A stretch of DNA of 63,489 nucleotides, the filler included, from Reclinomonas americana ATCC 50394 (taxonomy: Eukaryota), in NCBI GenBank assembly GCA_048213135.1. It is 8 parts of 8 records of this genome, joined end to end, with 100 filler letters (N's around TTAATTAATTAA, not from the genome) between each part and the next. Parts side by side here need not be neighbours in the genome. Positions count along the whole stretch, not along the records: positions 32,378 to 57,294 come from AFZH01019022.1; positions 57,395 to 62,304 come from AFZH01019023.1; 6 more parts are not named here. One strand, written 5' to 3'. A program made the position numbers and the translations under genes. The notes beneath the pieces are model-generated. The model worked only from the letters and a program-made list of their open reading frames with translations. It had not been told where the DNA came from and made no database searches. Below, piece after piece: positions 32,223 to 60,204 of the stretch; the first letter of the stretch is position 1, and each line of letters starts with the position of its first letter.

Positions 32223-32497
32223 TGTCTTGTGTGTGATGGCACAACTGCGGTTGGCTCAGTTGTGTGTGTGTGTGTGTNNNNNNNNNNNNNNNNNNNNNNN
32301 NNNNNNNNNNNNNNNNNNNNNTTAATTAATTAANNNNNNNNNNNNNNNNNNNNNNNNNNNNNNNNNNNNNNNNNNNNGATGCATTGAGTAGAGAGGGTTG
32401 ACGGAAAGCGCTGACCTCGACAATGTGGTGCGATTAACAAGCCTGTAGTAGAATGTGAGTGAGCGTATGCGACCCGCAAGAGTGTACGCCAGTTCGC

Positions 32498-35400
32498 TCA
32501 CCCATCAGCGTCATCCTCGCTGCGCTGGCCCACGTCGTCCACGATGCGATTCGCAGTCAAGAATGCGGCCAACGATGCAGCTTGTTCGTCGTCGGTGGCT
32601 CTTGCCTTCTTCTGACGCCACAGCCGCACAAACTCCTCCTCCGAGAGCGCCGAAGACGAATCGCCATCACCGCGCGCAAGTACAGAACGCTGCCAGGCAA
32701 GGAATTCGTGAAATAGTGCAGACAGTGTCGTTGACTGCGAGACCTGCAAAGAAAAAAGTGTGAGCTGGCACAGCAGCAAGAACGACGGCACGCCAAAGCA
32801 CGCTCACCGACAAGGACCGCTGCTGTCGAACGCTAGTCATAAAGTACATCCAGGCACCGACGACATCCTGCTTCCTCAGCATGGCAAGCACTCGCACACG
32901 GTGGAGATCGACATTGCGCGCCTGTCTTCACATGTCAACGACGCCTTGCTTCATGAAAACGCCGCATCAATTCCACTCACCGGCGAGCCCTCATTGTCGT
33001 CCACCAGTTCGTGCGCAGTCGTCACCTCACTCACCACGAAATGCGGTGACGGCGGCATTTCCGAGTGCCACAACCTGGAATTGTCGCTGCAGTCCAACAA
33101 GTGAGCGTGGACTCGGAGACATAGAAACAAAGGCCACTTGACTCACAAGTGTGTCGCCGCACCACGGCCCATGCGCACGGACGCAAGTCCACTGCCGACC
33201 GACGGCGGTGCACTCATGTCGCCAACCAACTCCTTGTCTGACACAAAGGACAACAGGCGAGCGCGCGAGTCCAGCAGGTCGTTACCGGGGCCATCGGCAC
33301 TAGCACCCATCATGGCGTATTGTGCAAGCCACAGACGCTGGAACTCGTCGGCCGACATCTCCGGTGCCAAGCTCTCCTTGCCCATCCCTGTTCTGTGCAC
33401 CCACTCGAAGAACTCGCGTTGCAGCGCCGCCAGCGAGAAGCCAACGGGGACCTGATGGACCGATCAGTCATGTGACAGGTTTGGCAAGGGGGGGAAATAT
33501 GAAGAACGGAGTGCCGGCGACTTGAGCGCCATTTGTGCACGGATACGAGGTAGAGAAAGCAGTGTCTGTGAGCAAGAATGACATCTAAAAGCACCACTCT
33601 GGCATACTCCGAGTCGAACGCAAGAGCTGCGTCCTGCCCCAGTCTCCACCACGAGCTCATTCTGCATCCAATAGCAACCCATCACGTGTGTGTAATCTAC
33701 CCTTCTTTTCCCTCACTCGAAGTTCGTTTCCCTCTCCAGCTACTCAATCGTCCATCTTCACCAACTCGTTTCGCCCTCTTCCCATTCCTCCTCTCCATCG
33801 AGCTCGTTTCTTCTCAATCAGCTCAGTTGCCCCTCATTTAGCCTTTCCCTCGGTCCACCTTCGCCTTCTCCCGATTCTGCGTTCGTCCCTCCACTGCGAA
33901 GATACCTTCGAACTCGCGCCCCTCCTATCCTCCTCTCTCGCATCAACCATCTGCTCATCTCTGTCTCTCACTCCGACCTCACCATTTCCCATGGCCATCA
34001 TGTCATTTCTGTCCTCCCTTATCGAGGCAGTTGCCAACCTCTTTCTCTCACTCCTCACGCATCAACTTCATTCCTCCTCCATCCTCTCAACCTGTCTCCT
34101 CATCCATGTTCTCCATTCTCCGCCCCTCACATCAAGTTCGTTTCTCCATCGCCTGCTCAACTGTCCTCCCACTCATTTCTTTCCCACTACTATCTGCTCT
34201 CCTCTTTCTCTCGGTTCTTTCTGTTTCTCTTTGTTCTCTTCCTTTTCCTTCTCTCACTGCCTCCTCCTCCCTCCTAATCCCCCCTCCCAGCATCGACGCA
34301 ACTGCTCTCTGTCGGCCATGTTGTGCGTAATGCAACAGCGCGCCAAAAATATCATTCTTTCGCAGTTGGGACACGGCAGTGAGCAAGTGTGTGCTGGATT
34401 CGCCTCGTACTCTCAGTCGAGCAACGCGCGGAGGCAAGGGTGGTGGTGGTGGTGGTGGCGGCGGAGGTGACCGTTGCCCACGAGCAGACACCACCACGGT
34501 GCGGTGACACTGCGCGTGTACAGATGCACACAATCGTTGTTACATCGCGAACTTGATTGCAAACCACGCCCTCCCACTCCACATCAAACTCACCTTGCGA
34601 GCCGACTCTGCACACTCCAAGTCGCTCGTATCATCGGCGGGCATGTCGATGGATGTCACCTCCACCCGCTTGCCGGTTGTTGTTTTGTGAGCAGAAGGCA
34701 ACTGCATTACAATACGCGGCGTGCGCATAAATATCTGCGAGACAACCCACACCACCGGCGCCATGATCACGCCTGCAGACAAGCGTGAGGGACTACGGGC
34801 GCGGTGAATAGATCTGGGTTGCACGAAACCAGAGATAATGCCAATCAGCATTTCGCGAAGGAAGGCGGAACCACCGCCCGTGACGGTGGCTTGCTCGGCA
34901 AACACGGCATTGGTGTACAGAGCGAGGCACACGGCAAACCAAAGAACCTGAAGGAAGTGTGGAGTGAGCAGGTTATCAAGGAATGGAAATGAAGAAAGAG
35001 ACAGAGACACAGTGTGAGTGTCACTTGCGGAAAATGGTCACTCCATATTTCCGGGCCAACGCAGACCACTTGCGGAGAGAAGATAGAGAGGGCGCTCAAT
35101 GTAAAAGTTGCACACGATCGGAAACATGATACGACACAGCGACAGTACGTGTGGTGGCGTCTTACAGACTCCTTTCTTTCCTTCTAAGACGGCAGTGCGA
35201 CGTGCATGAGTTCTCTGCAAAAGTTTGAAACACACCCCCTCTTTCTATCTTGCATTCTCCTCTTCATATTGTGTACCGTGACTGCATACAGCGCGAAAGT
35301 TGCTTGAAGAGTCCTGGTACTTCTCCATCCCCTCGCTCCCTGTTGCCATCTCTCTCCCTCTCATACTGCGCACCGTGACCGCATACAACGCGACAGTCAT

Positions 35401-38400
35401 CTGAAGAGTCCTGGTAGTTCTCCATCCCCCTCTTCGTCTCTCTCTCCTCTGTCGACGTCCTTCTCATGCAGTGCATCGTGACTGCATACAGCGCAATAGT
35501 CTCCTGAAAAGTCTTGCAAGTCCACAATCCCCCTACCTCGCTTTTTCCTTGCTCTCCTCTCCAAATCCCCTCTCTGAGGTGCAACAAGACAACTGCTTCA
35601 AGTCATTGCGCGAAGCCGACACATCTCCCTCCCTCCCTCTCACTCTCATTGTGCGTACGGCGACAGTGCAGTGTGCGGCGGTCATGTGAAGAGTATTGCA
35701 AGTCTACCGTCTCCCTTCTCCTCTCTTTTCCCTCTCCGAGTTGAAAGACAACTACGTCCCTCGTCTGACAGTCTCTCCCTGCACACTCTGCGCGTGGCTT
35801 GCTGAAGACTGCTAAAGAGTCCGGCAAGTTGTCCGTGTCCCTGTCTCCTTGTCTCCCTCTCTCTCTCTTACACCCTGCGCACAGCCACTGTGCACTTTGC
35901 ATCCTTTCCTTCTCGCCCCATCCCTCTCAGCACACGGTTACTACTGTGCTAAACTTCCTCATCGCTCATTCTCCTTTCTCTTCTCCTCTCTTAGTTTGAC
36001 AACTCAACTGTGTGCCTACAGTAAGTGCGTGAGCCGTGTCTCTCTTTCTCTCTGCTGCGAGTTCTCTGTGTGTGCGTCTTTTCGAACTTGCTCCCTTCTC
36101 CCTCTCCCCACCCTTCCACCTCCCTCCCTCTCCCTCCCCTCCCCCTTCCCTCCCTTCCCCTCCCCCTTCCATCCCCTCTCCCTTCCCCCCTTTCCACTTT
36201 CCCGCACCGTCACACGCTGCGTTCGACGGAAGCGATCCGCATTCGGGCACATAATCGTCGACACCCACGAGTGGTCATCTGCACGCAGCCACCACGCTAC
36301 TCAGAAGTGCACTGTTCGCACTAATCAAGCAGCATGCACACACCTCTCACAGCCGCCCACACAGCCACAGCGCGTCTCATCAACCAACTGCGACAACGAT
36401 TGACGCGTATCACCGAGCGCACGAGCTCTGTGCGCGTTCAAGTTAGAAACGAGCGTAGAAACACAAGAGACTCGCAAGAACAATGGCCACAGAACGTCGG
36501 AATCGTGAAACAGCCACGAAATGCCTTTCAAGTGCCGGAAGTGAGTCTGACCAAAAGAACGACAAGAGTGAGCAGTGCGATGCCACAAGGATTATGCGAT
36601 AGTCATACACACCTGCATTTTCTGCCTGCAGCCCGCGCTCGCGCAGGTCGGCGGTGGAGAACACACTGTGCACAATCACACACGCGCACTTTCAGGAACA
36701 ACTTGAGAAAATCGCCCGACGCGATACACACCCGGCAAACTTGACGCCAGCCAGCTCAGCTTGCCGCAATGGTATTTTCAACATGGTGACACATCGGACC
36801 AGCTGCCGGTCGCTCGCCTGGTCCATTTTGTAGCCAATGTACAGCTGGATGAGATAGATGACTTGAATCACTGGTGCACGCGCGCAGGGTGGTGGTGAGT
36901 GGTGAGCAGGCTCGTGGTGACAGCGGGTCGGTGAGTGCTTACCAATGACAATCGAAAATGTCGAGCTCCTCAGCAGCTGGCCCGTGAAGAGTGACAGCAG
37001 GTCGGCAGGACTGAGAATCACCACATTAGCTCACTTGCGATTCGACAACACCGCCGAGTACAGACGCAACGAGACAAAGGTAAAATGAATGTTGAAGATA
37101 TCGTGCACTGCAGAGAGAGAGAGAGAGAGAGCAATGCGAATCAGCACGATTGAACATCCAGACAAAATTCTCCACCCGAAGGACGCACAATTCACGCTAA
37201 AATCCGTCATGTGATTACAACGACACACAAACGACTGCACGTCGTGAGTTCCGCGCGTCACTCGCACAAATCTGTCACGTGTGTGTATTCGTCAGGTCAG
37301 AGCGTAAACGAACAGCACAATGCGTCGTGCGGCGTCGCAACGTTTTGCATCCGTCCGATATCCACTGCTGCCTGGTCTCGTTCCAGAACACACAAAGCTT
37401 GCCGAAGTCGGCAGCAGTAGCTGTAGAAAAAGAAAACAGAAAGGCGCCGTGAGAAGCCCTCGCCTCGCGCGAATGCCATCGTTCGCACGCACGATTGTCA
37501 CTGCGGTACACGGTCCGGTTGCAATCTGTGCAGACACGTAAGCACGTGCGCCTATTCGTCAGCTGACGCACATAATTGCAATGCAAAGCGCAACGGCTGT
37601 CATCCAGGGCCACCAGCGTCGTGTCGCCATCGTCAACTGCCTCGGGTGAGTGCAAGCCACGCACTCCACAACCATCAATGTACTCCAACACATCGCGCTT
37701 TGCCAGGAGGTGAGACACGACACATTCACGGGCAGGCAAGCATGCACATGAGACGTACCAGCTGCGGCGCGACGGCGGCCAGGAGCGCGCTATCTTGACG
37801 AGCAATCTCGAACGTGAACGATTCACCCGCAGTGGCGTTGAGAGCGATCGGCACTCCGTTTGCCGTTTGCAGAGACACTCGCTGGACAGGACTCAGGAAG
37901 ACGGTGGTGGAGTTGCGGCTGTCCGTGTAGGGCAGCAGACCTGTGACAGCCATGTAATGGGAAGACATGCTTCAGACTACTGCACGCAATACACCAGGTG
38001 ACCAACCATTGTCGATAAGTGTCGAGGTGATGATCGGGTAGACACCCTGCAGTCGCTCCGTAACGCTCAATGGGAACTGGTACTGCGTGACCAGGGAGGA
38101 GGCAACGTCATCCGTCGGGGGCACGGTGAAGGTGGAGCTGTTGGAGAACTGTGTGCGCAACATTAACAGTTCTTTTGTCAGCAGTTTTCGAGTGACGTGA
38201 GCAGGCTGCCCGGGCAGCACAGACCTGGATGCCGGGCGCCGTCGCCGACGGCGAAAGGTACGCAGACACCAGCTGTATGTTGGTGCCAATGATGGCAATT
38301 GCAGGATCGCTGGCGGTCTTGGTGTTGACAGCACGAAATCCGACAGTGGACAGTGCCGTGATACCATTATTCGCCATCTCTCCGTTCAGCACTGTGCCCC

Positions 38401-41400
38401 GCGTGGCTCCAAACACCGTATCCACCGTCGACACCAGCAGCTGCACAGTGAGCCAGGGATTGAGCACACGTAGCTGCTCACGACGAACAACTAAAATTTC
38501 CCCTGACAACAATCTGCACTTCTTGTCCTCTCTTCAGTCTCCGCTCTCTCCATCAAGAATCTCGCCACCGACATGCAAGCAGTCGGCGAGTGTGCTTTGA
38601 GAATGAAGTAAATGAGAGGTGTGTCTATTCCTTGCCCTTCCTTCATCTTTCCTCTCTCCGTCTCCCCTTCTTCCTTCTCCTCACGCTATCTCCCTCGCCA
38701 CCAACATGCAGCAATCGGTGAGTGCGCTTGAGAAAGACACAAGTGAGAGACGAGTCTACTCTGTCTCCGTCTCTCCTTCTTCTTTCTCCTCACGCTCTCT
38801 CCCTCGCCACCGATGTCGACTTTCAGCGATCGGTGAGTGTGCTTTGAGAAAGACGCAAGTGAGAGGTGTGTCTACCTCTCTCCGTTTCTCCTTCTTTTCT
38901 CCTTCTCTCTCCTTCTTCTTTCTCCTCACGCTCTCTCCCTCGCCACCGAAATACAGCAATCGGCGAGTGTGCTTTGAGAACCAAGCAAGTGAGAGGTGTG
39001 TCTACCTCTCTCCGTTTCCCCTTCCTTCCTACATCTCTCCCTCCTTCTCCTTCACCTCCTCTCTCTCCCTCTCGCCCTTCTCCCTTCCCCTCCCCCCGGT
39101 TTCCCCATTTCTCTCACCTGCACGGAGGACACTGGAAGATAGCTGCCAATCGTGGCCATGTGCACAGCTGTTTGCATCAGGGAACTTGCGGCGGTTGTTG
39201 CAACGGCGGCCGCGGCAGAGTCACCGCTCTTGCCCATATCACGCAGTGAGCTGACATGCGAATGCGCCAGTGAGTAAACGAGTTTAAGGTACGCTGAAAA
39301 AGGTGGAGATGACAGCACCTGGCCAGATCTCCAGCCACAAACAGCATGGTGGTGGTGGTTTCGGGAGAGAGTGACAAGTCGATTTTCGCAGCGGTCGCCG
39401 ACAACAACATTGCGGCGTCACGAACGGCTGCTCGGTTAGAAGAGACTGCACCGTCCTTGTGAGAATCAAGAAAGAGACGCGCGCGAGATACCCACATGGT
39501 AGCAGGGTGTCTCACCATCGAGCAGCGCAGATTGGTCACCCACAGTCAGTGCCGATACGCCGGCACTCAGCGAGCCCATGGCATCCGCCACCTCACTGTC
39601 GGTAAAGTCGGTAAGGTCAAGCTGCTGCGCTCGGTCAAAGATGCCGCGGAGAAAGGCTCCGTCACTTGCAGTTGTGGACGGTGCGGTCGACTCGAGAACC
39701 ACAATCGTGGAGTAGACATCGACAGACGCGCCGTATACATCGCGAACCGTGACGCCGACTTGCAGGTGATTGCCGGTGGAGGCGCTCCCAGCCAGCGGAA
39801 AGATAACGCCCCTGATAACAGAAATCGTACTGGCCGTGATAAAGACCTGTGGACGAGAAAGGGGAAGGGAGGTCAGCGTGAAATGAAATGCTGCATTTTG
39901 GGGACGAACTGGTTCTTTCAAGACCAACCTTGGTGCCGAGCGACGGGTGCACGTAGAACGGGAGATAGGACACTGGACGCGTGCGCACATACAAGCAGGT
40001 GAGATACAGTTCCATTCGATGAGCACGAGAACAACAGGCGACGCACGAGGTTGATCCTTGTCCACAAAGTCGGTCATTGTGAAGGTAAAGGCGGTGATTC
40101 GGGCCACGCCACTCAGCGGCGTAATGGCAAGAGTGCCAGCAGTCGGCAAATCATTGATGTCGAGTGTGATGGAAGGAACAACTGGGGCGAGGCACGTCGT
40201 CAGGCACTTCTATCACAGCACGGGTACAGCATAGCAAGACCCGGACGTACCTGGAGTGCTCAGCGCGGGCAGTGCCAACAACTCAAACACATACTTCTTG
40301 TTGCCCTCGAAAACACCCTCCTTGATGCGCACAGCAGGCGGCTGTCCAGGAGCCGATGAAGGAAAATCGAAATCAGGCAAACCGAGCACCAGCTCCTGCG
40401 TCGACCCTGCATTGCGCACACAGATGCGAGTTCAGTAACACGACTGCGAATACGTCTCGCTGAATCGCTGATACCTTGCTGATACGCTCGCCACGAGAAG
40501 CTGGTGTCCGTGGGAGTGCCGAATGCAGTGGCGGTGATGGAAATCGAGCGCAGCGGGTTCAGCCGTGCAGTTGAAGCGCCGACAGCCAAAGGTGACGCCG
40601 AGACCTGTGCACGCAACACCATGATGAATAACAACGCCACCTCGCACCCAAGCAACAGAACGTCGACAAACCACTCTGAATGCGACAGATTCTCCTCCTT
40701 GGACTGTCACGTCTGCGGTCGCGTGCCGGTTGCGAGTTCCTCGAGTCACTGTGCACCCGAACGAGTAGCTGCAGGGAAGAGACGTGAGAAGCCCATTTCC
40801 CTCCTTGTTAGGCACTCTGGGTGATGCCGTCACGCAACATGCCCGGCGTGCTGAAGCCAGCAGCAATGGTCAGCACTGCAGACCGCTCCGTCGAAACAAC
40901 GGATGCCCCACAGGGTGTGCCCCCGAAAGAGCATGTCCACGTGAACACCACCGGCACGTCTCGCACCAGCGACCGAGTTCGGTCAACATCCACCAGTGTG
41001 GCCTGCACGGTCACAGGTCCGCCGACACCAACCACCGGCCCTATGGGGGTCAACGACAGCTCCAAGTCATGGAACTCTGTGCGCGCGGGTGACGAAACAG
41101 AACACAAAATGAGTGTGACAAGATGGCAGATACACGCAGAACGCAGCACGCAACGAGTGACAATAGCTTCTGCCGCTGGCGTCAAGTCTCCCGAGTTCGC
41201 GTCCGTGACGACAAACACGAAGAGATCGGAGTAGCCGGTGGCCGCCTCGAGGCCGGCCAGAGTGCACAGCACCGGAGTCGTCGAGGTCCTGTTGAACGTC
41301 AATACCGTGTGAGTGAATGAAAGAGTGATGGAGAGAGCGGGCAACACACACGGAAACTCACCACAAGCAGGGCGATGTCGTAGGATGCCAGTCGATGAGT

Positions 41401-50400: not shown

Positions 50401-53400
50401 ATCAGCAACGAGTGTGCAGTGCCGCACTGTCTAACATCTTGCAGTGCCGATCACGCACCGTGAAAAACGTGCTGTTTCCGCCGGACCATCGACGCTGCCA
50501 ATAGCCCCAGTACCGGCCAACAACGTGACCGTGCCGGCGAGCGTCACCGCCCGCACGACATTGGCTCTGTTGAGCATGTGATAGAAAACCATCAGTGGGT
50601 GACTGCGATGACGCGCGAATAAGCATGACGCACTGATAGTCGGTGACGAAGAACGTGCCGCTGCTTGCATCCAATGCCACGCCCTAATTTCTCATCGAAA
50701 TATGGAAAGGATGTTAAAACGCACACTATCAGGTAACAAGCATCCTCACTGCGTGAGCCCGGCGCACCCATGGACTCGGGAATGCCCCGGTGCTGGAGGC
50801 AACCAAGGTGGACAGGACAGGCACTGTGCTGCCAAAGGCGGCGGACGAGAGAGCAAGATGGAAAGCATTGCTGGTGAAGCCCGTGTCAACTGTCGCATTC
50901 AGCACAGCGCTGGTGGAGGTGACAGACGACGCGACCAGCGTGCTCACAACAGGTGCTGCGATGCAAGGAAATGGGTACCAACTTTCAACGGCGCAAAAAT
51001 GACACGCTCACAAACCCGGATTCGCCGGCATCGTGGTAAACTGACTTGACTGGGGGCGAGCCGACAAGTCGGAAGGGCTCACAAACCGATACACGTATGT
51101 CGTCGACGACAACAACTGCCGCACACTCACTGACGCCGAATAGCTGGTGCCACGAATACCGTCACTGGAAGGGCTGATAGCTGTCACATCGGGTGGGATG
51201 GTGACAAGCCGTATGCGTGAAGATCCAGCATCTGACACAAGCACGCACGGTAAACATTCTCATCTGGATCGAAGAGATCACCACTGCACGAACGCACCGG
51301 AAACAAACAGAGTGCCATGCACGGCTGACATCATGCCAGGTGCATTGAATGTAGCGTTGAAGCCGTAGCCGTCGACGGCAGGACCGGTTGCGGAGGATGC
51401 TCCTGCAACAACTATTATCTGACTGCCGGAGAGATATCGGATGCAATTGTTGCCCGTCTACAAGTGGCAACCTTCAGTATGGGGGTAGCAAGAGAGAACG
51501 GGATCATATGAGACGCAACATCAGCCACGAATATTGTCAGCGAATCTGGGTAAACGACGACGCCGGTAGGGTTGTTCATGAGAGTGCCAGTTGCGCCAGA
51601 CATGCCCGGCTGTCCAGCAACGAGAGTGACGACGAATGTGCTCAGGTCCACCGACCGGATCACGTGATTGCCACTGTCGGCCACCAACAGACGCTGTGTC
51701 GTTGAATCCAGTGCGATTCCAATTGGTTGATTGAATGAGGCCGTGATGGCAACACCATTTGCGTATCCGCTGCTTCGTCGAGTGCCAGCCAGCACGCTTA
51801 CAAGCCCACTGGCGGAGGTGCGACTGTGACACAAAGATGATGAGACAGGTGGTACAGCAAGCGTGGCGCTCTGCAGGGCGGAAAACGCACAAAATAACGT
51901 GCAGCGCAGCATCGGCCACATAGAACTCGCCACCGGAGAATTCGGCGACCGCAACACCTCGAGGAGCCTGAAAATCAGTCGTCACTGTGGACACTTGATT
52001 CGCTGACAGGCGACGCAGGCTGTGGTTGCCATCCTACAAGAACACAACAACAATGAATACATGTGCACAGATACCAAAAAAACGAAGCTTTTAATTCGCG
52101 CACCTCGGTGACAAGAATGTCCCCATTGCGTGCGTCCACAACTACGCCAAACGGTCTGTGACGAACGCGGTCATTTAAGCAGATTGCCAATCTCATCACG
52201 TTCTGCGGCATACGCACCGTGAGAAACTGGCCGCAGTATATGGACCGTCTGACGAGCCCGAGACACCAAGAGTGCCGGCCAGTGTGCTCACGCTGCCATC
52301 CATACCCACTGATCGGATCACATGGTTGCTGCACAAAGGAAAGGAAAGTGGGTCCGACTCGCAAATGGAGCAAGGGCAAACACGCGCAGGCGGTACGAGC
52401 GTACTTTGTGTCGCAGACGATAATGCGACCAGAGGTCCAGTCCACAGCCACTCCCTTTTGTGATTGCCAATTACAATGCAAGTAAGTCGCGAGTCTGGCC
52501 ACAGCAGACAACGTTCAACAACAACAAACCATCGGTGACGATAACGACAGGCTGTTGTCCACTGCCGATGACCCAGCTAGTGTGGACACTGTGGCCGCAC
52601 CACTGCCAAAAAGATCGGCTGACGTGGCCAGCTCGAACTTGAAAGAATTGGTCAAAGAACTGGTGAGCGTGGCAGCGCCTGACAACGTGGCCGAATTCAC
52701 ACCGACACTGGTGGCGGGATCGGTGGTCAACGAAGTCACTGAGATCAGCACACGAAAAGTGAGCAATTAGCGTGCCAGTTGTCCCGGGTCACAATATGCA
52801 AGACTGTACCCACCGAGATTCGTGGTGACAGAGGCCGTGGGCGACCGAAAAGGCGAGTTCAGGTCCACCCCGCGATATATGTATGACAAGCCCGAAACCA
52901 GTGCGACGCTAGCCGTCAGAGTGACCGACGTGGATCCAGTCGCAGTGGATGGCGAAGTGACATATGGACTCGGCGGCAGCGTGATGATTCGGATGGCACT
53001 GTCGCCAGTGACAGTATCGTTTGTCGTCAGTGTCACAGTGGAGCCCTCGACGACTACACCGTGCTGCAGAATGGGGGAAATGGCGCAAAATGAGACAGCT
53101 TCCTCGTTGACTAAATGCACGACAGATCGAACCGGTGTTGGGAAAGACGCGGAGGTGAGTGGTCCATCATTGGAGGTGGACCAAGCTGGTGAGCCTGCAA
53201 GTGTGCTCACACTGCCGGATGTCGCAATCACCCGCACCGTGTGGTTGCCGGCCTGGCGCGACAGAAAACGACGTAAATATTACGCATGTTGGTGCGCATC
53301 TCCAGCGCACAAAACAACTCACCTCGACTACGAACAGAGAGCCAGAGAGGTGCTCGTATGCCACTCCTATCGGATCGCGGAACAAGGCGCCACCCGGAGC

Positions 53401-56400
53401 ACCATCAGTATATCCTGGTGACGACGACTGACCGGCCACTGTAGTGACTGCCATGGTGACCAGCACAATCTTGCGCACAATGTGGTTGCCGGTGTCGGCG
53501 ACATAGAGCACTTTCTGATTCGAGTCCAGAGCGAGGCCGATCGGCGAGCGAAATGAGGCACCGGTGCTTACGGCGTCTGTGTTGCCCGGAACACCGACCG
53601 AACCGGCGACGGTGGCCACCAGTCCTCGGAAAGACACACGACTGACAAAAACAAACAAACAGGAGCAGCAGCAATCAGCGTGTGTTAATTCACGCCAAGA
53701 GAGACCTGCATGCGCGAACGCCAGCAACTAACCGCACAGTATGTAAAGAGTCGGTGATAAACAGGCACTCACGATCGGCGAGCGAATCCACAGCGATTCC
53801 ACGTGGCTGCGTGAATCTCGCGTCGCTGCGAATGCCGTCATCGTGACCAGCTGCGCCGACAATAGAGCCCGCCAGGGTCGACAGCACACCAGCGGATAAC
53901 TTGCGAATGGCATTGTTTCCGCTCTGTGCCCACAATTGAGAGGCGCGCACGTGTGGCATGCAGACGAGAGACAGACAACTGCTACATACATCAACAATGA
54001 AAACATCTCCTGTCCCGCGGTCGATCCCAACAGAAGTCGGACTGGGTGGGAGACCCAAAGCCAGCCCTGTCATTACATCGTTGCTTCGCATGCACTGAGT
54101 GAACCACAGACCTGGATAACAGAGCGCCGGTCGGCGCGCCTTCGACAAAGCCGGCGACGCCAATCTGACCGACGAGAATCGTCTGGACTCCGATGACCGA
54201 CACAGAACGAACAACGTGGTCCCTGAGAGGCGAGCATAGAGGCCCGTGAGATGAAAGCAAAACAATGCACACACGCACACACAAAAAAGGACTCCAGCTA
54301 GCTTCACGTGAAAAGTGCGTGCAAATCAACTCGCAAATCACCTCGCATCGGCCACAAGGACGTTACCGCTGCCGTCCACAGTCAAGCCCTGCACCGAGTA
54401 CCGAGAGGTTGACTGACACACACAGTCTCAAAGCCAGTCGAGATGAAGCTACCACCAACCATAAAGCCGACTACTGCAGCGGGATCCGGCGAAGTTGGCG
54501 GAGCTCGCGTAACAGTCTTCAAGGTCGACACCAGTGGAGCATCGCCAAATACATCTGGCGACCTGGCCACCTGCACTGTGCCCTGAACAGAGGACCCGTT
54601 TCGAGGATTCACAAGCGCGCTGAAGGCAGCGGCCGTTAGCGCGCGAGTCAGCGAGTTTGACGACAGCGAGACCGTGGGTGTGGTCCAGGTGGGTGCTGAT
54701 GGGGCAGGTTGCAGTTCAAGCGAGTACCACGTTTTCACAGCACGAAAGAATACCTGCGGAGGTGGTGATGGAAACCACGGTGCCGGAGAGTACGAGTGTC
54801 GATGCTGCCGCACGCACAAAGTATGTCGTCGCCGGCATCAACTGCGAAACCGTCGCGGAAAATGTCACCAGTTGTGAGTTGCCTGCTGCTGTGGACGGAG
54901 AGGCAGCGACCGTGGTTGCTGGCAGTACGACCTGCCGGAGTAGCACATTTCCCGTGTCTGACGCAGCAGCAAGTCAGTCTCTCCGACGACCAAACGAGGC
55001 ATGACAGAGAGGGGCAAACGCGCCAGCAACAAGCAGTCGTCCACGCTTCAAGTCAAATGCAAGCCCACGCTGGCGATTACATGATGAGGGACTGCGTGAG
55101 GGAAGGGAGCGTAAGAACAGCACTGCCCGCACCGGAGACGACAGCCGCGAATCGCTGGCGGATCCGTCTGTCAACCCACTTGTACCAGGCACGCCGGCGA
55201 CAACATCAAGAGAGCCGTCCACTAAAGACAGGCGTCGAACAACATGATTTGGCGTCTGATAACGAATGCAGTGAGTTGGGCAATCGCCGCGAGCAGATTG
55301 GAGGCCTCACGCTTCGCAACATCAGCAATAAACAGCATTTGGCCTGCAACATCGAGAGCAACCGTCGCGACGGCGGACAGCACAGCTGTGGTCGATGGCA
55401 GTGTCGACACTGTCAGCGTCGCAAGGTCGACAAGGCGGATGGTGTGGTTGCCGGCATCGGCGACATACAGCAGGCCGCGATTCGGATCGACGATCACATC
55501 TGCGGGCGAGCTGAACCTGGCCGAGCGTGCGACAGCGTCGATGAAGCCCTGCTGGCCGGGGGAGCCAACAAGCGTGGCGGTGATGCCTCTATACGAGACT
55601 CGCCTGTACGCGCACACAGAATGGGCAAGAGAGATAGGGAAAGGGAGAGAGAGAGAGAGGAAGGAGAGAAGAGAAGGAGAGAGGCAAGCGAGGAGAGACA
55701 CAAGACAGCATAGAGGGAGGAGAGACACACACAGAGAAAGAGAAGCAGAGAGAGAGAGAGAGAGGGTGGAGAGAGAGACACGCCCACACATACACATACA
55801 CGCTATCTCTCTCTTCAACGCAAGCAAGTTGCAATCGTGTTGCAACATAAAGCACTCACCGAATGGTGTGATTCAGCGTGTCGGCCACGTACACACACTC
55901 GTGATTCGTATTGGGATCCGCGGCAAGACCCTGCGGACCGCCAAACTGCGCGGTAACAGTGGTCCCGCGTGGTCGGTCAGCAGTTCCCTGGCTGCCGTTG
56001 CCGGCCAACGTGGACACAGCGGAACCGACAATCGAGCGAACAGCATGGTTGGATTCCTGCAAGTGTGTGCGCGCAGTGAGACGAGGTTGTGCAACGGGGC
56101 AGCGCAATCGCACACAACTTCGGAGACGTAGATGACTTGCGTGTACGGGTCAATGAAAATGTCGGTGGGGCTGAGGAAAGAAGGTCAACAAATACCGTTG
56201 ACGCAAAAGAGCACCGCAAGAGGAAACTCACTGCGAAAAGCGCGCACTGCTGGTGCCGTTGGCAAAGCCCGGCGTTGCGACAACGCCAGCCAAGACACTC
56301 ACGGTGCCAGTGGCAGTCACTTTGCGAATGACATGCGTACTGCACGGTGATATGGAAGAGTGAGTTGCGACACAAACACAGCCGGCTCATGAAAAACAAC

Positions 56401-57394
56401 ATACGCACTCGTACTCTGCGACAAATACATTGCCGGTGGCGTCCACCGCAACACCCTGCATGAAAACAAAGTGGCCGAGCGTGAGCGATCTCACATCAAT
56501 ACGAGGCGGTGCGGTGCCTCTGTCCCACAAAAGCACACACCCGCGGGGAGGAGAACGTGGCCTGCAGAGTGGAGACCGAAATCACTCCGTCGATGGCACT
56601 GGACACGCCAGAGATTTGGAAACTGAGACCGCTCACCGCGGTGCCGGCACTCGAGAGGACAGAGCCCTGCAGCGTGATGGTGGTGCTCGTCGTCGCAGAG
56701 GGAGCGAGGGTGGTGATGGTGATGCCCGTAGGATCACCTGCAACACATTGTAAGAACCCCAGCCAAGATTCTCTCCCTGTCTTTGCCAACGAAACTTTGC
56801 GTGTGCACGACTGGTCGGCGACTCGAGCATGGCACCGACAGCAGCACCACCTTCTCGACGGAGAGCGGCAGACCCGACCTCATCGACATCATCGGCCGCG
56901 CATCGTGATGGCCGGTGTCGCTGCTGTCATCCATCTCCGTCGCGCGAACACGCACGTGTTGCAAACACGACATGTCGTACTCGTCCACTCCCACTGCTGC
57001 TGAGGCGGCGAGCGGCGGCGGGGGCGTCGGCGTCCACCACAACTCGCAACCATTGGCGATGCGCAGGGAGGCAGTCGGCACCTCGGAGACAAGTGAAAAC
57101 GAGTGTCGTTGGTAGCGATTGGCGTCGACAGCGAGGAGTGTGCCAAGGAGGACACCGAGTCCGTGTGAGGAGGGAGGAGGAGGGAGGAGAGGGGGTGAAG
57201 TTGTCGTCGGGAGGAAGTCAATATCCGATGGCGCGACATTGGCTGTGGCGGTGCATGCGGTGAGAAGAAGAAGAAGAAGAGGAGGAGGAGGAGGNNNNNN
57301 NNNNNNNNNNNNNNNNNNNNNNNNNNNNNNNNNNNNNNTTAATTAATTAANNNNNNNNNNNNNNNNNNNNNNNNNNNNNNNNNNNNNNNNNNNN

Positions 57395-57450
<56 letters not shown>

Positions 57451-58191
57451 AGAGAGAATGCGTGATTGCAAACCTTCGGCGATCAAGAACGAGGCCTGGA
57501 TGCGAATGCGCTCCATCCGAGGACCGGCCAGTGGCACCGCAGACGCACGGGCGCCGTTGCTGTCGCTGTCGACTGGCAGCATTCTCACGGCACAACTCAC
57601 AGTGACAATCAACGGCGACCCCAGCACTCCACTCTCGCTCATGACGAGCTCATGGCCGTGAACGCCTCTGCGCACGGCGAAAAGGTGCGAATCCCTGCCG
57701 CCGCCCTCCTCGTCATCCAAGGTGGCACAGTCGTCGATGATCACCGCGAGCAAAGCAGATCCCAGATGGTCTGCGTCGACTCGCAGTTCTCCAATCACTT
57801 CACCGCGTGTTGATGGTGGTGTGTATGCAGGCGATGTGGGCATTAGCAGGAGGTGGGCTGTGCGAAAGTGACAAGCATCAGAACAACATTGCACTGCACA
57901 ATTGATCAATGCAGTGATCTGTGCATGACGGTGGTGTCGAGGGTGCGACGCGGCACCGTCAAACAGTATGCGCGAGGATGGTGCACATGCAGCAGATGCA
58001 GGAGGCTCGAGAAACGGAGAGGAAGAAACGTAGATGAACCGAACACGCACAATGACAAATACACGCTTGCGCTGCTGGCACGTACTAGAACACATCTCAC
58101 CTTTGCGCTGTTCAAGCAGTGGTTCCGAGGCAACACATAGTGTGCACAAGCAGCATGCCACCACGAGCATCAGCAAGAGCGCAGTGCGCAT
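32498..58191 (-). CDS. Giant polycystin-1/REJ-like membrane receptor: signal peptide, cadherin-like domains, 6 NHL-in-FN3 modules, EGF-like domain, 7 Cys-containing repeats, FN3, REJ, GAIN/GPS, TM region and cytoplasmic tail; dozens of introns; spans the gap at 57295-57394
   Basis: Signal peptide MRTALLLMLVVACCLCTLCVAS at 58191. NHL motifs (STLAG..G..DG....ARF..P.G.A.D....YVAD.GNH.IR) throughout 45700-56500. REJ motif PTAGTLAITPLSGVARITAFTFTMTDFVDKDQP, GPS motif and PKD1-like TM helices follow. Linkage of the 3'-most exons (32498-34500) is the least certain part. Confidence 0.75.
34600..37110 (-). other. PKD1-like transmembrane region of the giant receptor
   Basis: Post-GPS helix FSIVI-VIQVIYLIQLYIGYKMD, then WSALARKYGVTIFRK, VLWFAVCLALYTNAVF and REMLIGIISG-VIMAPVVWVVSQIFMRTPR. 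These resemble PKD1/PKD1L TM2-TM3. Confidence 0.6.
35270..35830. repeat. Intronic degenerate ~100-bp tandem repeat
   Basis: The core cgtgactgcatacagcgc...tgaagagtcctggta recurs near 35272, 35370 and 35472, with more decayed copies near 35670 and 35790. Confidence 0.7.
37190..37405 (-). other. GPS autoproteolysis motif
   Basis: Spliced sequence LCVFWNETRQQWISDGCKT-FVRVTRGTHDVQSFVCRCNHMTDFSV fits the C-x2-W...W...GC...C-x-C-x-H-(L/M)-T-x-F consensus. Confidence 0.88.
38561..39020. repeat. Intronic 4-copy degenerate repeat (~110-135 bp period)
   Basis: ctcgccacc...cagcaatcggYgagtgtgctttgagaa...caagtgagaggtgtgtctac starts near 38561, 38694, 38803 and 38939, separated by CT-rich spacers. Confidence 0.8.
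39400..41520 (-). other. REJ domain of the giant receptor
   Basis: VVFTWTCSFGGTPC, YSFGCTVTRGTR..ATADVTV, TSFSWRAY, IKEGVFEGNKKYVFELL, PTAGTLAITPLSG..ITAFTFTMTDFVD, LQVGVTVRDVYGAS. Confidence 0.75.
42185..45210 (-). repeat. Seven ~100-120-aa Cys-containing beta-rich protein repeats
   Basis: Each unit has P.......TL.G.GL....VR.V.F....C....(G/D).(Y/W).VCV(D/E). The C-terminal motifs read GQWSVCVD, YK-ICVE, GVFCVCVK, GRWTVCVE, DTYAVCVD, GLYSLCFD and SWYAVCVD. Confidence 0.7.
45280..45470 (-). other. EGF-like domain
   Basis: CSSTAYGSICT-ACPCQNGGICNSGVAGDGSCTCPPLFKFTNIC. Confidence 0.7.
45475..56737 (-). repeat. Six tandem modules, each an NHL repeat cluster flanked by the two halves of an FN3-like domain
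   Basis: Approximate module spans are 56737-54757, 54710-52815, 52740-51015, 50958-49155, 49105-47290 and 47240-45475. Each starts T..AT.V...SA.L.G.V and ends SA.V..L.P.TTY.YR....FTT. Confidence 0.75.
56790..57920 (-). other. Two degenerate cadherin-like domains
   Basis: ANVAPSDIDFL...GVLLGTLLAVDANRYQRHSFSLV...LRIANGCEL...DEYD...VRVRATE...GLPLSVEKVVLLSV fits the bacterial-type cadherin pattern. The upstream exon GEVIGELRVD...DSHLFAV..ELV is a weaker copy. Confidence 0.55.
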
Positions 58192-58599
58192 GAGGCCTGT
58201 GTGTGTGTGTGTGTGTGTGCTCCAACTGGTGAAAAGCGATTGTCCTTTGACTGCAAATCGAACACGCAGCCCGAGTGTGCTTTGTTTTTGTCTGTTGCTG
58301 ATGGAGGCACTGGCTTGTTGGTGGACGACGATGTCCTTGTTGCGATGGTTTCGTCGCACTCTCTGTGCCCTGCGAACTGCGCTTTCTGTTGTTGGTTCCT
58401 TGCAATTGGGAGAAAAATATATATAGAGAGACGGAGAAAGAAATAGAGAGAGGGAGAGGGAGAGGGAGAGGGGAAGTGGGAGGGAGGGAGGGAGAGGGAG
58501 TACGCCAGGCGAAGAATGCACATGATAACTGTCCTGTGTCGTGTGTCATGTGTCTCCACCAAAGCTGTGACATCAATCTCATTCTCTCTCGCTCTCTCT

Positions 58600-58770
58600 C
58601 TCTCTCTTTCGTAGTCTCTCTCTCGCCCGTCTCTCCCGACAGCCTGCACGTGATAAGTGGTAGTGATGATTGCACGTTGCGTGTGTGTGGCTCGCCAGTG
58701 GGGATATCGATGACATGTGACAGTGTAAGGGGCTTCAAAACCACACCTGTGTCAACGGAGTCACATTGAT
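58600..58770 (+). pseudogene. Decayed WD40 repeat relic upstream of the intact WD40 gene
   Basis: Translates to VSPDSLHVISGSDDCTLRVCG and then loses the pattern (gtaaggggcttcaaaaccacac resembles an 'EVRRLEGH' remnant). Confidence 0.5.
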
Positions 58771-59014
58771 CCTGATGTGTGGGGTGGCTGGCTGCCTCAG
58801 CGAGGGATGGAGGACGTCTCAGAGCATGGCGGGACGCAGGAAGGCACAACGATGACAATTCCGAGCGAGCAATTCACACGCACACGATACAAAGAGAACA
58901 GACTCTTCGTGACCACCACAGGAGAGTACCGACCAGGCGGCTTGCTCTCCGAAGAGAGAAAGTCAACAGAAGCGAGCCAATCAAGAGAGAGGGCACAAGA
59001 GTCCTCTTTATCCA

Positions 59015-59082
59015 ATGGCAGCCAAGGTGCGCTCACACTTGCGTGCGTGTGAGAGGGATTCATGTTGGTGGCTGCTGCCCTT

Positions 59083-59130
<48 letters not shown>

Positions 59131-60204
59131 TGCCCATCTCACTGTGAATGGTCGAAACAGGTCTTGCAGGGTCATACACGGACGGTAAAATCTGTCACAC
59201 TCACTCCCGACGGCCTCCATGTCGTGAGCGGGAGCAACGATGAGACGGCGCGAGTGTGGTCGCTGACGAGTGGCGAAGAAGTGCGACGATTAGAGGGTCA
59301 CGCTGGAAGGGTGCAATCAGTCGCCGTCTCTCCCGATGGTCAGCTTGTTGTGAGTGGCAGCTTCGACAGAACAGTGCGGGTGTGGTGTCTGACGAGCGGC
59401 GCGGAAGTACGACGGTTGGAGGGACACACTGGCGTGGTTTACTCCGTTGTTGTCGCCCCTGATGGTCAGCACATTGTGAGTGGCGGCTTGGACAAGACCA
59501 TCCGCGTGTGGTCCCTGGCGAGTGGAGAAGAAGTGCGACGGTTGGAGGGACACGCTGACTGGGTGCTCTCCGTTGCGGTCACTCCCGACTGCCAACATAT
59601 CGTGAGCGGGAGTGAGGACTCCACGATACGAATGTGGTCACTGGCGAGTGGAGAAGAGGTGCAGAGGTTGGAGGGACACAATGGAAGAGTGTACTCTGTC
59701 GCCGTCACTCTCGATGGTGAGCGCGTTGTGAGCGGAGGTCGTGACATGACAGTGCGCGTGTGGTCTGTCGCGAGTGGGGAAGAAGTGCGGCGGTTTGAGG
59801 GACACACTGACGCGGTGGTATCCGTCGCCGTCGCCCTCAACGGCGAGCTAATTGTGAGCGGGAGTTATGACAAGGTTGTGCGTGTGTGGTCACTGGCGAG
59901 TGGGCACGAGGTGCGACAGTTCAAGGGACACACTGGTGTCGTGTGGTCGGTTGCGGTCACTCCCGATGGGCAGCGCATCGTGAGTGGGAGCAACGACGAG
60001 ACGATTCGAGTGTGGTCCACGCTGCGTGGGCTGGCCCAGCAGGAGCTTGCGGCCGCACGACTTGCCGTACTGGCTGTCAACGAGCTGCTTGCCGAAGAAG
60101 GTGACCGCGATTGGATCCTGGTCGATGTCGTGTTGCGGTGTTTTGTGCTGGAGGACGCAGAGGTGCTTGGGTGGCAGGCGCAGGGGTGGGGGGCTGCTGT
60201 GTAA
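59015..60204 (+). CDS. WD40 protein with 7 highly similar 42-aa repeats and a short C-terminal tail
   Basis: Exon 1 MAAK (59015-59026), intron GTGCGC..CAG (59027-59160), then an uninterrupted exon with seven xLEGHxxxVxSVAVxPDGxxIVSGSxDxTxRVWSLASGEEVR units. Confidence 0.88.

What the first reader, a model, noticed from the sequence alone, without database searches (positions are those of the whole stretch)
32498..58191. ~25.7-kb gene for a giant polycystin-1-like receptor with an unusual adhesin-like ectodomain
Seen: same-strand exons encoding a signal peptide, cadherin-like domains, six NHL modules, EGF, seven Cys repeats, FN3, REJ, a GPS motif and PKD1-like TM helices, in the order expected for one protein. 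Known: REJ+GAIN/GPS+TM defines the polycystin-1/PKDREJ class, whose animal members carry PKD, lectin and LRR domains. Inference: this is a several-thousand-residue protist sensory or adhesion receptor (prey, surface or partner recognition). I do not recognise this domain combination.
Basis: partly seen in the sequence, partly recalled or inferred. Interest (0 to 1): 0.88.

Follow-up and report, generated by a model that had tools for sequence, protein, structure and literature searches.

The report
Giant protist REJ-GPS surface receptor gene

Summary
The domains exist, but on the MINUS strand: N-terminus at 58191, running down towards 32498. Exon-wise Pfam finds NHL in 10 ORFs (best E 2e-9), REJ (7e-12), a GPS split over two neighbouring exons, and weak EGF and FN3. 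The plus strand gives nothing relevant.

My own spliced model runs from ATG 58191 to an in-frame TGA at 37033-37031. It has 80 GT-AG exons, a median intron of 70 nt, and 4,606 aa. The order is: one signal peptide, six modules of a 5-6-blade NHL propeller plus an FN3-like domain, an EGF-like exon, seven Cys repeats with an IPT/TIG-like fold, a partial REJ, and a complete GPS motif.

Not confirmed:
- Cadherin domains.
- PKD1-like membrane helices. The frame stops 30 codons after the GPS, and no intron of normal size removes the stop.
- PLAT or PKD_channel in 62 downstream ORFs.

The 4.5 kb downstream holds hydrophobic ORFs and an EF-hand-like tail. These may be the same gene (assembly error) or another gene. 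The window is a draft scaffold, and one gap (57295-57394) cuts the gene.

Best reading: a REJ-GAIN adhesion receptor of the sea-urchin REJ1 / Naegleria single-pass type. It is a new variant of a known kind. No RNA data could be obtained.

The parts
58101..58191 (-). Exon 1. ATG at 58191 and a signal-peptide-like N-terminus (MRTALLLMLVVACCLCTLCVAS...). The donor GTGAGA follows at 58100.
   Evidence: sequence and translation; the strongest hydrophobic start among 216 open ATG starts on the minus strand.
56796..57857 (-). Two N-terminal modules of no known family, on exons 57857-57474 and 57242-56796. They are separated by an intron that holds a (GA)n run and the scaffold gap.
   Evidence: no Pfam family at E<=5; the two modules are not alike. 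AF2 pLDDT 36.8, uninformative.
57295..57394 (.). Assembly gap: 44 N + TTAATTAATTAA + 44 N. It lies inside the putative second intron, so exons 1-2 lie on a different contig from the rest of the gene.
   Evidence: It is one of seven identical spacers in the window, most of them beside microsatellites.
45439..56737 (-). Six tandem modules. Each has an NHL beta-propeller of 5-6 detected blades, an FN3-like domain ending in a TTY-x-x-R type motif, and a small beta-rich linker domain. Propellers lie at about 56573-55219, 54465-53132, 52592-51196, 50800-49619, 48832-47461 and 46752-45631.
   Evidence: NHL in 10 ORFs, TEN_NHL in 2, FN3-like in 3 here; a fourth FN3-like hit at 45257-45703; a self-built blade profile gave 34 rows, 31 with E<0.01, in six groups of 5, 5, 6, 5, 6 and 5 (the sixth group's fifth blade is at E 0.01); four of the six FN3-like ends matched the motif pattern; the other two were read by eye.
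45273..45374 (-). EGF-like exon with six Cys (CPCQNGGIC...).
   Evidence: EGF E 1.2e-3, 19.5 bits against a cut-off of 21.5; in-frame translation.
42182..45208 (-). Seven repeats of about 105-120 aa with a conserved mid Cys and a '...VCVD' motif. Predicted as an Ig-like beta-sandwich of the IPT/TIG (E-set) type.
   Evidence: alignment of 7 repeats, mean column identity 36%. AF2 pLDDT 70.9, pTM 0.63, 8 strands. VIA-align Z 8.0-9.6 to plexin, Met and EBF IPT domains and the CNNM4 ectodomain. Foldseek gave only generic Ig-like hits, best E 7e-3; no Pfam at E<=5.
41784..42095 (-). FN3-like exon.
   Evidence: fn3 E 0.016, below the cut-off.
39516..41288 (-). REJ region. The Pfam-matched core lies on exons 40181-40047 and 39846-39516. 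The upstream exons are assigned by position only.
   Evidence: REJ E 7.1e-12, profile positions 305-420 of 452; the only 3 relatives in 1.84 billion representatives are REJ fragments.
37189..39430 (-). GAIN-like region (Ala-rich helical exons, then beta-rich exons) ending in the GPS. The GPS exons are 37420-37342 and 37271-37189. The motif is C-x2-W-x6-W-x4-C ... C-x-C-x-H-M/T, with the predicted cleavage between M and T. The 677-nt intron 39117-38441 holds tandem repeats of 109 and 130 nt.
   Evidence: the two GPS half-matches; sequence, with splice junctions curated by hand; tandem repeats. The GAIN fold itself was not tested.
37031..37107 (-). Last exon of the open frame as assembled. It gives a moderately hydrophobic C-terminal stretch (HDIFNIHFTFVSLRLYSAVLSNRK) and then TGA at 37033-37031. 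If the 81-nt in-frame intron 37188-37108 is retained, a 25-residue hydrophobic segment is added.
   Evidence: the only GT..AG able to remove the TGA in frame is 24 nt long, whereas the shortest of 88 modelled introns are 46 and 51 nt.
32498..37010 (-). Downstream minus-strand ORFs of uncertain ownership.
- A chain of coding-looking exons at 37010-36280 with introns of 65-105 nt and hydrophobic segments.
- GA-rich low-complexity stretches at 36300-35000 and 34400-33600.
- A hydrophobic exon at 34947-34593 with three TM-like segments.
- A tail at 33463-32498 with a duplicated helix-loop-helix motif and an EF-hand-like loop.
- A stop codon at 32500-32498.
   Evidence: no Pfam family except GPS; nothing in the PDB; best PDB hits are EF-hand proteins, but at E 0.6-0.7; no relatives.

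Best explanation
WHAT IT IS
One very large minus-strand gene encodes a secreted-pathway surface protein of the REJ-GAIN class. In my own model it runs from ATG 58191 to TGA 37033-37031, with 80 exons and 4,606 aa. The domain order is:
1. A signal peptide.
2. Two unassigned modules.
3. Six modules of NHL propeller + FN3-like domain.
4. An EGF-like exon.
5. Seven IPT/TIG-like Ig repeats.
6. An FN3-like exon.
7. A partial REJ domain.
8. A GAIN-like region with a complete GPS motif (His at -2, Thr at +1).
9. A short hydrophobic C-terminus.

HOW IT MOST LIKELY WORKS (inferred, not shown)
- The long, glycosylated, S/T/A/V-rich stalk holds six propellers out as multivalent binding sites for a surface, prey or partner ligand.
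- The GAIN/GPS module cuts itself in the ER. This leaves a huge N-terminal fragment bound non-covalently to a small membrane stub.
- Pulling on the ectodomain could then shed it or expose the stalk peptide.

As assembled, the protein is of the one-helix, short-tail type (like sea-urchin REJ1/8/9), not the 11-TM polycystin-1 type.

Shown here: the domains, their order and strand, the single signal peptide, and the stop after the GPS.
Inferred: the exact exon model, that it is one transcript, the cleavage, the membrane anchoring, and the ligand binding.
For: - Strand and domains: (plus strand empty).
- GPS halves on adjacent exons join in frame into the full motif.
- A continuous path exists: 80 exons, all GT-AG, median intron 70 nt.
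- Only one signal-peptide-like start was found among 216 candidates on this strand. The ectodomain modules have none of their own.
- Six groups of 5-6 NHL blades. Seven Cys repeats align and fold as IPT/TIG-like sandwiches.
- TGA 30 codons after the GPS. No intron of normal length removes it: introns here are 46 nt or longer, and the candidate is 24 nt. Both alternative acceptors for the last intron (37107 and 37010) lead to a stop within about 30 codons (hand reading).
- No PLAT, PKD_channel or 7TM family downstream.
- The family allows this architecture. SpREJ1, 8 and 9 have one TM and SpREJ10 has none; PLAT is present in 5 of 10 SpREJ proteins (PMC1934368, passages).
- GAIN domains occur in protists (PMC3321182, passages).
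Against: - No RNA evidence at all, so the exon model is my own ab initio work and several small exons are doubtful.
- The frame just after the TGA stays open in the same frame, looks coding and is hydrophobic. It is followed by a chain of exons with normal introns, as expected if the gene went on.
- The C-terminal stretch before the TGA is a poor TM helix (18 residues, including His and Arg).
- The sequence is a draft scaffold with seven gaps, so a base error at the TGA or a 1-nt indel nearby is plausible.
- One gap (57295-57394) separates exons 1-2 from the rest.
- Domains were scored exon by exon only, so exon-split domains such as PLAT could be missed.
- The REJ match covers only a quarter of the profile.
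Confidence: 0.5

Rival explanations
1. One 25.7-kb gene runs from 58191 to 32498, and its product continues after the GPS into a multi-pass membrane region with an EF-hand-like cytoplasmic tail. Up to about 8 hydrophobic segments lie between 37100 and 34700. This would be a polycystin-1-like or adhesion-GPCR-like receptor. The TGA at 37033-37031 would then be an assembly error, a strain-specific nonsense change, or bypassed by an unusual event.
For: - The same-frame open ORF directly after the TGA is coding-like and hydrophobic.
- A chain of exons at 37010-36280 has 65-105-nt GT-AG introns.
- Exon 34947-34593 has three TM-like segments, and the tail has an EF-hand-like loop.
- No in-frame ATG lies between 37030 and 36826 for a separate gene (hand reading).
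- GAIN domains normally sit directly before membrane helices (PMC3321182, abstract).
- The draft status of the assembly.
Against: - The TGA is in the sequence, and no intron of normal size removes it.
- No PLAT, PKD_channel, polycystin or 7TM Pfam family at E<=1 in 62 ORFs.
- Nothing in the PDB by sequence.
- No relatives.
- About 2.4 kb of the 4.5 kb is GA-rich low complexity without a coding signal. At most about 500-650 codons remain. By my recollection an 11-TM PKD1-type C-terminal half needs about 1,000 or more.
- The DP score gain from adding the downstream exons is only about 19 of about 1,100 units.
Confidence: 0.3
2. The region holds two or more genes, or is wrongly scaffolded. For example, a small secreted protein (58191-57474) lies on one contig and a separate giant gene starts in the gap. 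Or the ectodomain is split into separate NHL and REJ genes.
For: - The gap at 57295-57394 lies between exon 2 and exon 3.
- Four other introns in the model exceed 200 nt (220, 243, 256 and 677 nt).
- The genome looks compact, so intergenic spacers could be short.
Against: - The contig starting at 57294 begins with an acceptor-led exon without a start codon, and the upstream contig ends in a donor-led exon in a fitting phase.
- No other signal-peptide-like start lies in 57000-37000, except one inside an intron at 44843.
- The long introns hold microsatellites or tandem repeats and fall inside domains: within an NHL propeller, and between REJ and GAIN.
- A GAIN/GPS piece alone would make no sense as a gene.
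Confidence: 0.08
3. A decaying copy (pseudogene) of a formerly multi-pass REJ-GAIN receptor. The TGA would be a real nonsense mutation, and the low-complexity expansions downstream would be signs of decay.
For: - The in-frame TGA is followed by same-frame coding-like sequence.
- Tandem repeats and GA-rich expansions lie in the 3' part.
- Almost no relatives in the databases.
Against: - 13.8 kb of upstream coding sequence stays open across 80 exons with intact splice sites and conserved repeat motifs. That argues for selection on the ectodomain.
- A truncated single-pass or secreted form can be functional (SpREJ1 and SpREJ10).
Confidence: 0.1

Closest known systems
Sea-urchin receptor for egg jelly proteins with one TM (SpREJ1, 8, 9), PKD1 family (PMC1934368)
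   Same: A large modular ectodomain, then a REJ domain and a GPS, followed by at most one membrane segment and a short tail. No PLAT and no channel block. SpREJ8 and 9 also have only partial REJ domains.
   Different: The sea-urchin proteins carry C-type lectin and PKD repeats. This protein has six NHL propellers, an EGF-like exon and seven IPT/TIG-like repeats, and is roughly 4,600 aa. Sequence similarity is confined to the REJ core and the GPS. The membrane helix is not secure here.
Polycystin-1 (PKD1) and PKD1-like proteins
   Same: Ig-like repeats, then REJ, then GAIN/GPS, in the same order. The GPS has His at -2 and Thr at +1. The protein is very large.
   Different: PLAT, the 11 TM segments and the channel-like last six TM were looked for and not found. 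The frame stops 30 codons after the GPS. The Ig-like repeats are of IPT/TIG type rather than PKD type. There are no LRR or lectin domains.
Naegleria single-pass NHL/EGF/REJ-like/GPS/TM receptors, noted earlier in this scan (e1-645210, e1-671588; unpublished AI notes)
   Same: The same unusual combination of NHL, EGF, a REJ-like region and a GPS directly before the membrane.
   Different: They come from another genome and are much smaller genes, without the six-fold NHL module array or the IPT-like repeats. I could not compare sequences, and those notes are unchecked.
Teneurins (NHL propeller with EGF repeats) and plexin/Met (IPT/TIG stalks)
   Same: Two NHL ORFs hit the teneurin NHL profile at about 2e-6. 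The Cys repeats superpose on plexin and Met IPT domains at Z 8.8-9.2. Both are adhesion or recognition ectodomains.
   Different: There is no YD shell, TTR, sema or PSI domain, and no kinase. The resemblance is at the level of single domains only.

Membership tests
PKD1 / REJ family (polycystin-1-like) | REJ domain (Pfam PF02010) | tested here: met
   E 7.1e-12, 45.1 bits (cut-off 25), on ORF 39469-40209. Only profile positions 305-420 of 452 match, so it is a partial REJ. Upstream ORFs gave no further REJ match at E<=5.
PKD1 / REJ family (polycystin-1-like) | GPS motif at the end of a GAIN domain, just before the membrane | tested here: met
   The two halves are on adjacent exons: 22.9 bits (cut-off 22.5) and 19.9 bits. 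Joined in frame they give the four Cys, two Trp and H-M-T. The GAIN fold as a whole was not tested, because the spliced protein could not be folded.
PKD1 / REJ family (polycystin-1-like) | PLAT/LH2 domain after the first TM | tested here: not met
   No PLAT at E<=1 in 62 minus-strand ORFs of 24 aa or more from 32437 to 37291. Caveats: the test was exon-wise, so a finely split domain could escape. Only 5 of 10 SpREJ proteins have PLAT.
PKD1 / REJ family (polycystin-1-like) | [quoted passage not shown] | tested here: not met
   No PKD_channel hit. The frame is closed by TGA 37033-37031. The hydrophobic segments downstream are in ORFs not linked to the gene. PDB sequence searches were empty.
Adhesion GPCR | GAIN/GPS followed by a secretin-like 7TM domain | tested here: not met
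   No 7TM family at E<=1 downstream of the GPS.
NHL-repeat beta-propeller | Repeated NHL blades (PF01436), five or six per propeller | tested here: met
   10 ORFs with NHL at E<=0.01, 7 of them above the 20-bit cut-off. TEN_NHL reaches 27.6 and 27.8 bits (cut-off 27.1). A self-built profile counts six groups of 5-6 blades. That profile is circular, so it gives a count, not independent proof.
IPT/TIG (E-set Ig-like) domain | Pfam TIG match, or an IPT-type beta-sandwich fold | tested here: inconclusive
   No Pfam family at E<=5. A medium-confidence AF2 model (pLDDT 70.9) matches plexin, Met and EBF IPT domains at Z 8.0-9.2, rmsd 2.1-2.6 A, over 80-88 residues. That is near the level where only a common arrangement may be meant. 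Foldseek gave only generic Ig-like hits.
Cadherin | Cadherin repeat (Pfam) with Ca-binding motifs | tested here: not met
   No family at E<=5 on the two N-terminal exon ORFs, nor at E<=0.01 on the longer ORFs. The fold prediction failed.
EGF / FN3 | Pfam EGF and fn3 matches above the cut-off | tested here: inconclusive
   EGF 19.5 bits against 21.5, with a six-Cys pattern visible. fn3 E 0.016. The FN3-like Pur_ac_phosph_N reaches 17-23 bits against 30 in four ORFs.

The most novel reading that the evidence does not exclude
The TGA is an assembly error or is bypassed. The gene then really joins a six-propeller NHL / IPT / REJ / GAIN ectodomain to a compact multi-pass membrane module with a Ca-binding EF-hand tail that matches no known family. 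That would be a non-animal GAIN receptor with a new kind of membrane and signalling half, neither 7TM nor PKD1-type 11TM.
Probability: 0.25. Interest if true: 0.7.

Novelty: new variant of a known kind. Interest (0 to 1): 0.45.

Why it matters
REJ-GAIN modules are known mainly from animal polycystins, sea-urchin REJ proteins and adhesion GPCRs. Their role outside animals is unstudied.

A protist protein that puts six NHL propellers and an IPT stalk in front of a self-cleaving GAIN module would show that this "pull-and-shed" design is an old, freely recombining cassette for surface recognition. If the protein is single-pass, it offers a simple system for asking what GAIN cleavage does without a 7TM or channel partner.

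It is not a new principle, and similar NHL/EGF/REJ/GPS receptors were already noted in Naegleria in this scan. The gene also shows how much of the 3' end depends on draft-assembly quality.

Tried and rejected
SEARCHES THAT FOUND NOTHING USEFUL
- RNA evidence: no RNA holder was listed for 38000-47999. No whole genome is held, so a PKD2/TRPP partner could not be sought.
- Relatives to guide the exon model:
  - Word-index search with the REJ exon: none among 1,631 candidates.
  - Full HMMER over 1.84 billion representatives: 3 short REJ fragments only.
  - Longer relatives of one fragment: 4 REJ proteins of 1,348-1,729 aa with other partner domains. They are alike only in the REJ core.
  - Metagenome loci by profile: 75 pattern matches, none confirmed.
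  - Metagenome loci by an exact 32-mer: 0.
I did not pursue it.
- Downstream ORFs:
  - Pfam at E<=1: only the GPS.
  - PDB by sequence: nothing for 34543-35037 and 36446-36691; a chance-level homeodomain hit for 33146-33463; EF-hand proteins at E 0.6-0.7 for 32501-32803.
  - ESM Atlas best score 0.77, at chance level.
  - Homologue search: none among 175 candidates.
- Rfam and tRNA scans of the window: nothing.
- Earlier notes: none for this genome or for this sequence.

APPROACHES THAT DID NOT HELP
- Codon-usage scans trained on the ectodomain or on neighbouring genes were too weak to settle the 3' end.
- Ultra-short introns as a class are rejected. The 69 short GT..AG candidates are mostly the tails of normal introns, and the modelled introns start at 46-51 nt.
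- My first gene-finder runs over-split the gene into 177 exons and were discarded.
- AF2 of the N-terminal module failed.
- One literature search was badly framed and useless.

A RECALLED LEAD, NOT TESTED
Two downstream hydrophobic stretches (about 36500 and 34930) seemed to me to resemble the polycystin-1 TM2 region. This rests on memory only, and no search supported it.

Full report
WHAT THE WINDOW IS

It is GC-rich (0.53-0.65) eukaryotic DNA with many short introns. No genome is held for it. It is a draft scaffold: seven identical spacers of 44 N + TTAATTAATTAA + 44 N lie in it, most of them beside microsatellites. From memory, this is the kind of six-frame-stop linker used to join contigs. 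Two of the spacers matter here. Spacer 57295-57394 cuts the gene after its second exon. Neighbouring genes are ordinary. They include LRR, striatin-like, symplekin, CREG, anoctamin, Vps54 and ArfGAP (+, 29433-29888). A seven-blade WD40 gene (+, 59053-60201) diverges from the giant gene. A ceramidase gene is also present.

CHECK OF THE OBSERVATION

On the plus strand, 206 stop-to-stop ORFs of 45 aa or more between 32452 and 59459 gave no relevant Pfam family inside the finding. Only low-complexity or chance rows appeared, plus the WD40 gene outside it.

On the minus strand I scanned 165 ORFs of 55 aa or more. They gave:
- NHL in 10 ORFs spread over 45996-56149. The best E-values were 2e-9, 5e-8 and 3e-6. 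Two of the ORFs also hit the teneurin NHL profile.
- An FN3-like family in 4 ORFs.
- A weak EGF match.
- REJ at E 7.1e-12 (ORF 39469-40209).
- GPS in two adjacent ORFs. They cover profile positions 3-34 and 29-44, so they are the two halves of one motif.

The gene therefore reads from 58191 down to lower coordinates.

GENE MODEL

No RNA run could be listed and no relative was close enough to guide splicing. I therefore wrote a splice-aware dynamic-programming exon finder. It used codon log-odds, donor and acceptor weight matrices and an intron-length term, and was trained iteratively. I then corrected the first exons and the GPS region by hand from the sequence.

The curated model has 80 exons, all GT-AG, from ATG 58191 to TGA 37033-37031, and encodes 4,606 aa. 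The median intron is 70 nt and the shortest is 51 nt. Five introns exceed 200 nt, and these hold microsatellites, the gap or tandem repeats. Many small exons are uncertain. The model is a working hypothesis, not evidence of a transcript.

ARCHITECTURE

1. The start is signal-peptide-like. Of 216 ATG-led open 30-codon stretches on this strand between 58600 and 32400, three pass a hydrophobicity filter. They are this start, its own internal Met, and one at 44843 that lies in an intron of the model.
2. Two N-terminal modules match nothing: no Pfam at E<=5, no likeness to each other, and AF2 pLDDT 36.8. The cadherin call is not supported.
3. Six tandem modules follow. A blade profile built from the protein itself finds 34 rows, 31 of them at E<0.01. 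They fall in six groups of 5, 5, 6, 5, 6 and 5 blades, the fifth blade of the last group scoring E 0.01. This is a count, not independent proof. Each group is followed by an FN3-like domain. Four of these matched a motif pattern; two I read by eye.
4. An EGF-like six-Cys exon lies at 45374-45273.
5. Seven repeats of about 105-120 aa with a conserved Cys and a VCVD-type motif follow.
   - An AF2 model of one repeat, using the seven as its alignment, is an eight-strand sandwich (pLDDT 70.9, pTM 0.63).
   - Foldseek gives only generic Ig-like hits, best E 7e-3.
   - VIA-align ranks the CNNM4 ectodomain first (Z 9.6, 101 residues). It is followed by plexin A4, A1 and C1, Met and EBF IPT/TIG domains at Z 8.0-9.2, rmsd 2.1-2.6 A, over 80-88 residues.
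   - I call them IPT/TIG-like with moderate confidence.
6. A weak FN3 exon follows.
7. The REJ match covers only profile positions 305-420 of 452. The only three relatives of this exon among 1.84 billion representatives are short REJ fragments.
8. A GAIN-like stretch follows, judged by composition only. It ends in a complete GPS: four Cys, two Trp and H-M-T.

THE 3' END: THE WEAK POINT

After the GPS exon (37271-37189) comes an in-frame 81-nt intron with good signals. Then a last exon ends in TGA at 37033-37031, 30 codons after the cleavage site.
- The only GT..AG pair that would remove the TGA in frame is 24 nt long. The 88 introns of the model start at 46-51 nt, and the 69 short candidates found are mostly the tails of normal introns.
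- Using the alternative acceptor at 37010 also runs into a stop quickly (my reading).
- By canonical splicing of the sequence as given, the giant frame therefore ends here. It leaves either a weak 18-residue hydrophobic end or, if the 81 nt are retained, a 25-residue hydrophobic segment plus a 24-residue tail.

Downstream (37010-32498) there is more on the same strand.
- The same frame reopens at once with hydrophobic, coding-like sequence.
- A chain of exons with 65-105-nt introns runs to about 36280.
- About 2.4 kb of GA-rich low complexity with no coding signal follows.
- An exon at 34947-34593 has three TM-like segments.
- A tail has a duplicated motif and an EF-hand-like loop, and ends at 32498.

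None of this matches PLAT, PKD_channel, a 7TM family or anything else. The best PDB hits of the last exon are EF-hand proteins, but at E 0.6-0.7. The dynamic-programming score gains only about 19 of about 1,100 units from these exons. I cannot tell whether they belong to the giant gene (through an error, readthrough or decay) or to a second gene. No in-frame ATG lies before 36826.

COMPARISON WITH WHAT IS KNOWN

REJ + GPS places the ectodomain in the polycystin-1/REJ family.
- By the sea-urchin survey (PMC1934368; abstract and passages read), that family includes members with one TM (SpREJ1, 8, 9), two, six, eleven or none. PLAT occurs in only 5 of 10, and partial REJ domains also occur.
- GAIN domains are reported in Tetrahymena, Dictyostelium and Monosiga (PMC3321182; abstract and passages read).
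- The features that define polycystin-1 proper (PLAT, 11 TM, a channel-like block) were tested and not met. I therefore do not file the protein as a PKD1 orthologue.
- As assembled, it is closest in design to the one-TM REJ proteins.
- Earlier notes of this scan (unchecked AI notes, used as leads only) describe single-pass NHL/EGF/REJ-like/GPS/TM receptors in Naegleria and a giant-virus PKD1-like protein. The domain combination is therefore not unique.
- In the paper library, no paper holds "NHL repeat" together with "GAIN domain" or "REJ domain" (0 of 2 listed). In the papers listed that hold "NHL", judging by their titles and abstracts, the term means something else. One search listed 12 of 17 hits, none on such a protein.
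- I saw no supplements.

MECHANISM (INFERRED)

This is a tall, glycosylated stalk (29 N-x-S/T sites, S/V/A/T-rich) that presents six propellers for multivalent recognition. GAIN autoproteolysis gives a large fragment held non-covalently on a small membrane stub. Force on the ectodomain would shed it or expose the stalk. His at -2 and Thr at +1 are present. Met replaces the usual Leu at -1. Cleavage was not tested.

VERDICT

Cadherin and PKD1-type helices are not confirmed.
- Odds: about 0.8 that 58191 to about 37000 is one gene for a REJ-GAIN surface protein; 0.5 that it ends at 37031 as a short-anchored form; 0.3 that it continues to 32498.
- It is a new variant of a known kind, of moderate interest.

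LIMITS

- All domain calls are exon-wise, because a spliced sequence could not be passed to the family, fold or homology tools.
- No transcript data were available.
- The assembly is a draft.

Noticed in passing
window 6543, 13023, 21193, 25262, 32278, 57295, 62305 (each 100 bp): Seven identical spacers of 44 N + TTAATTAATTAA + 44 N, most of them beside (CA)n, (GA)n or similar microsatellites. They look like contig joins of a draft scaffold with a six-frame-stop linker. The true gap sizes are unknown.
   Followed up: partly
window 38651-39071: Tandem repeats of 109 and 130 nt (2.3 copies each, 83-85% matches) inside the 677-nt intron between the REJ and GAIN exons. On the minus strand each unit contains an acceptor-like and a donor-like site around about 42 nt, so duplicated mini-exons cannot be excluded.
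   Followed up: partly
window 32498-33463 (-): Two copies of a helix-loop-helix-like motif (L-x-A-L-x2-E-F-x2-W ... S-x-E/D-E-F-x-R-L-W). The second copy has a loop that fits the EF-hand pattern (D-x-D-x-S ... L ... E). The best PDB hits are EF-hand proteins, but at E 0.6-0.7 only.
   Followed up: partly
window 36016-36300 (-) and 35250-35600 (-): A Gly/Glu/Arg/Lys-rich low-complexity ORF on (GGA/GAG)n-like DNA, and nearby about 110-nt near-repeats ('..ALYAVT..' in two ORFs). It is unclear whether these encode a disordered cytoplasmic region or are non-coding.
   Followed up: no
protein P0003 against window 39511-40170: The nearest database relative (34% identity by tblastn) looks like an unspliced ORF called on genomic DNA of a related organism. 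It carries an unalignable insert at the place where the window has in-frame intron sequence, which hints at a conserved intron position.
   Followed up: no
window 58302-60201 (+): A seven-repeat WD40 gene (WD40 E 4e-81) diverges from the giant gene. Its possible first exon (weak WD40 hit at 58302-58766) would start only about 110 bp from the giant gene's ATG at 58191, which suggests a very compact shared promoter region.
   Followed up: no
window 18916-20990 (-), 29433-29888 (+), 60648-61592 (-), 8489-9370 (+), 9535-10440 (-), 24199-24843 (+), 157-1836 (-): Ordinary neighbouring genes by Pfam: anoctamin, ArfGAP, neutral ceramidase C-terminal part, symplekin C-terminal part, CREG, Vps54 and an LRR protein. 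No PKD2/TRP-type channel was seen among the ORFs of 120 aa or more scanned outside the finding (141 scanned).
   Followed up: partly
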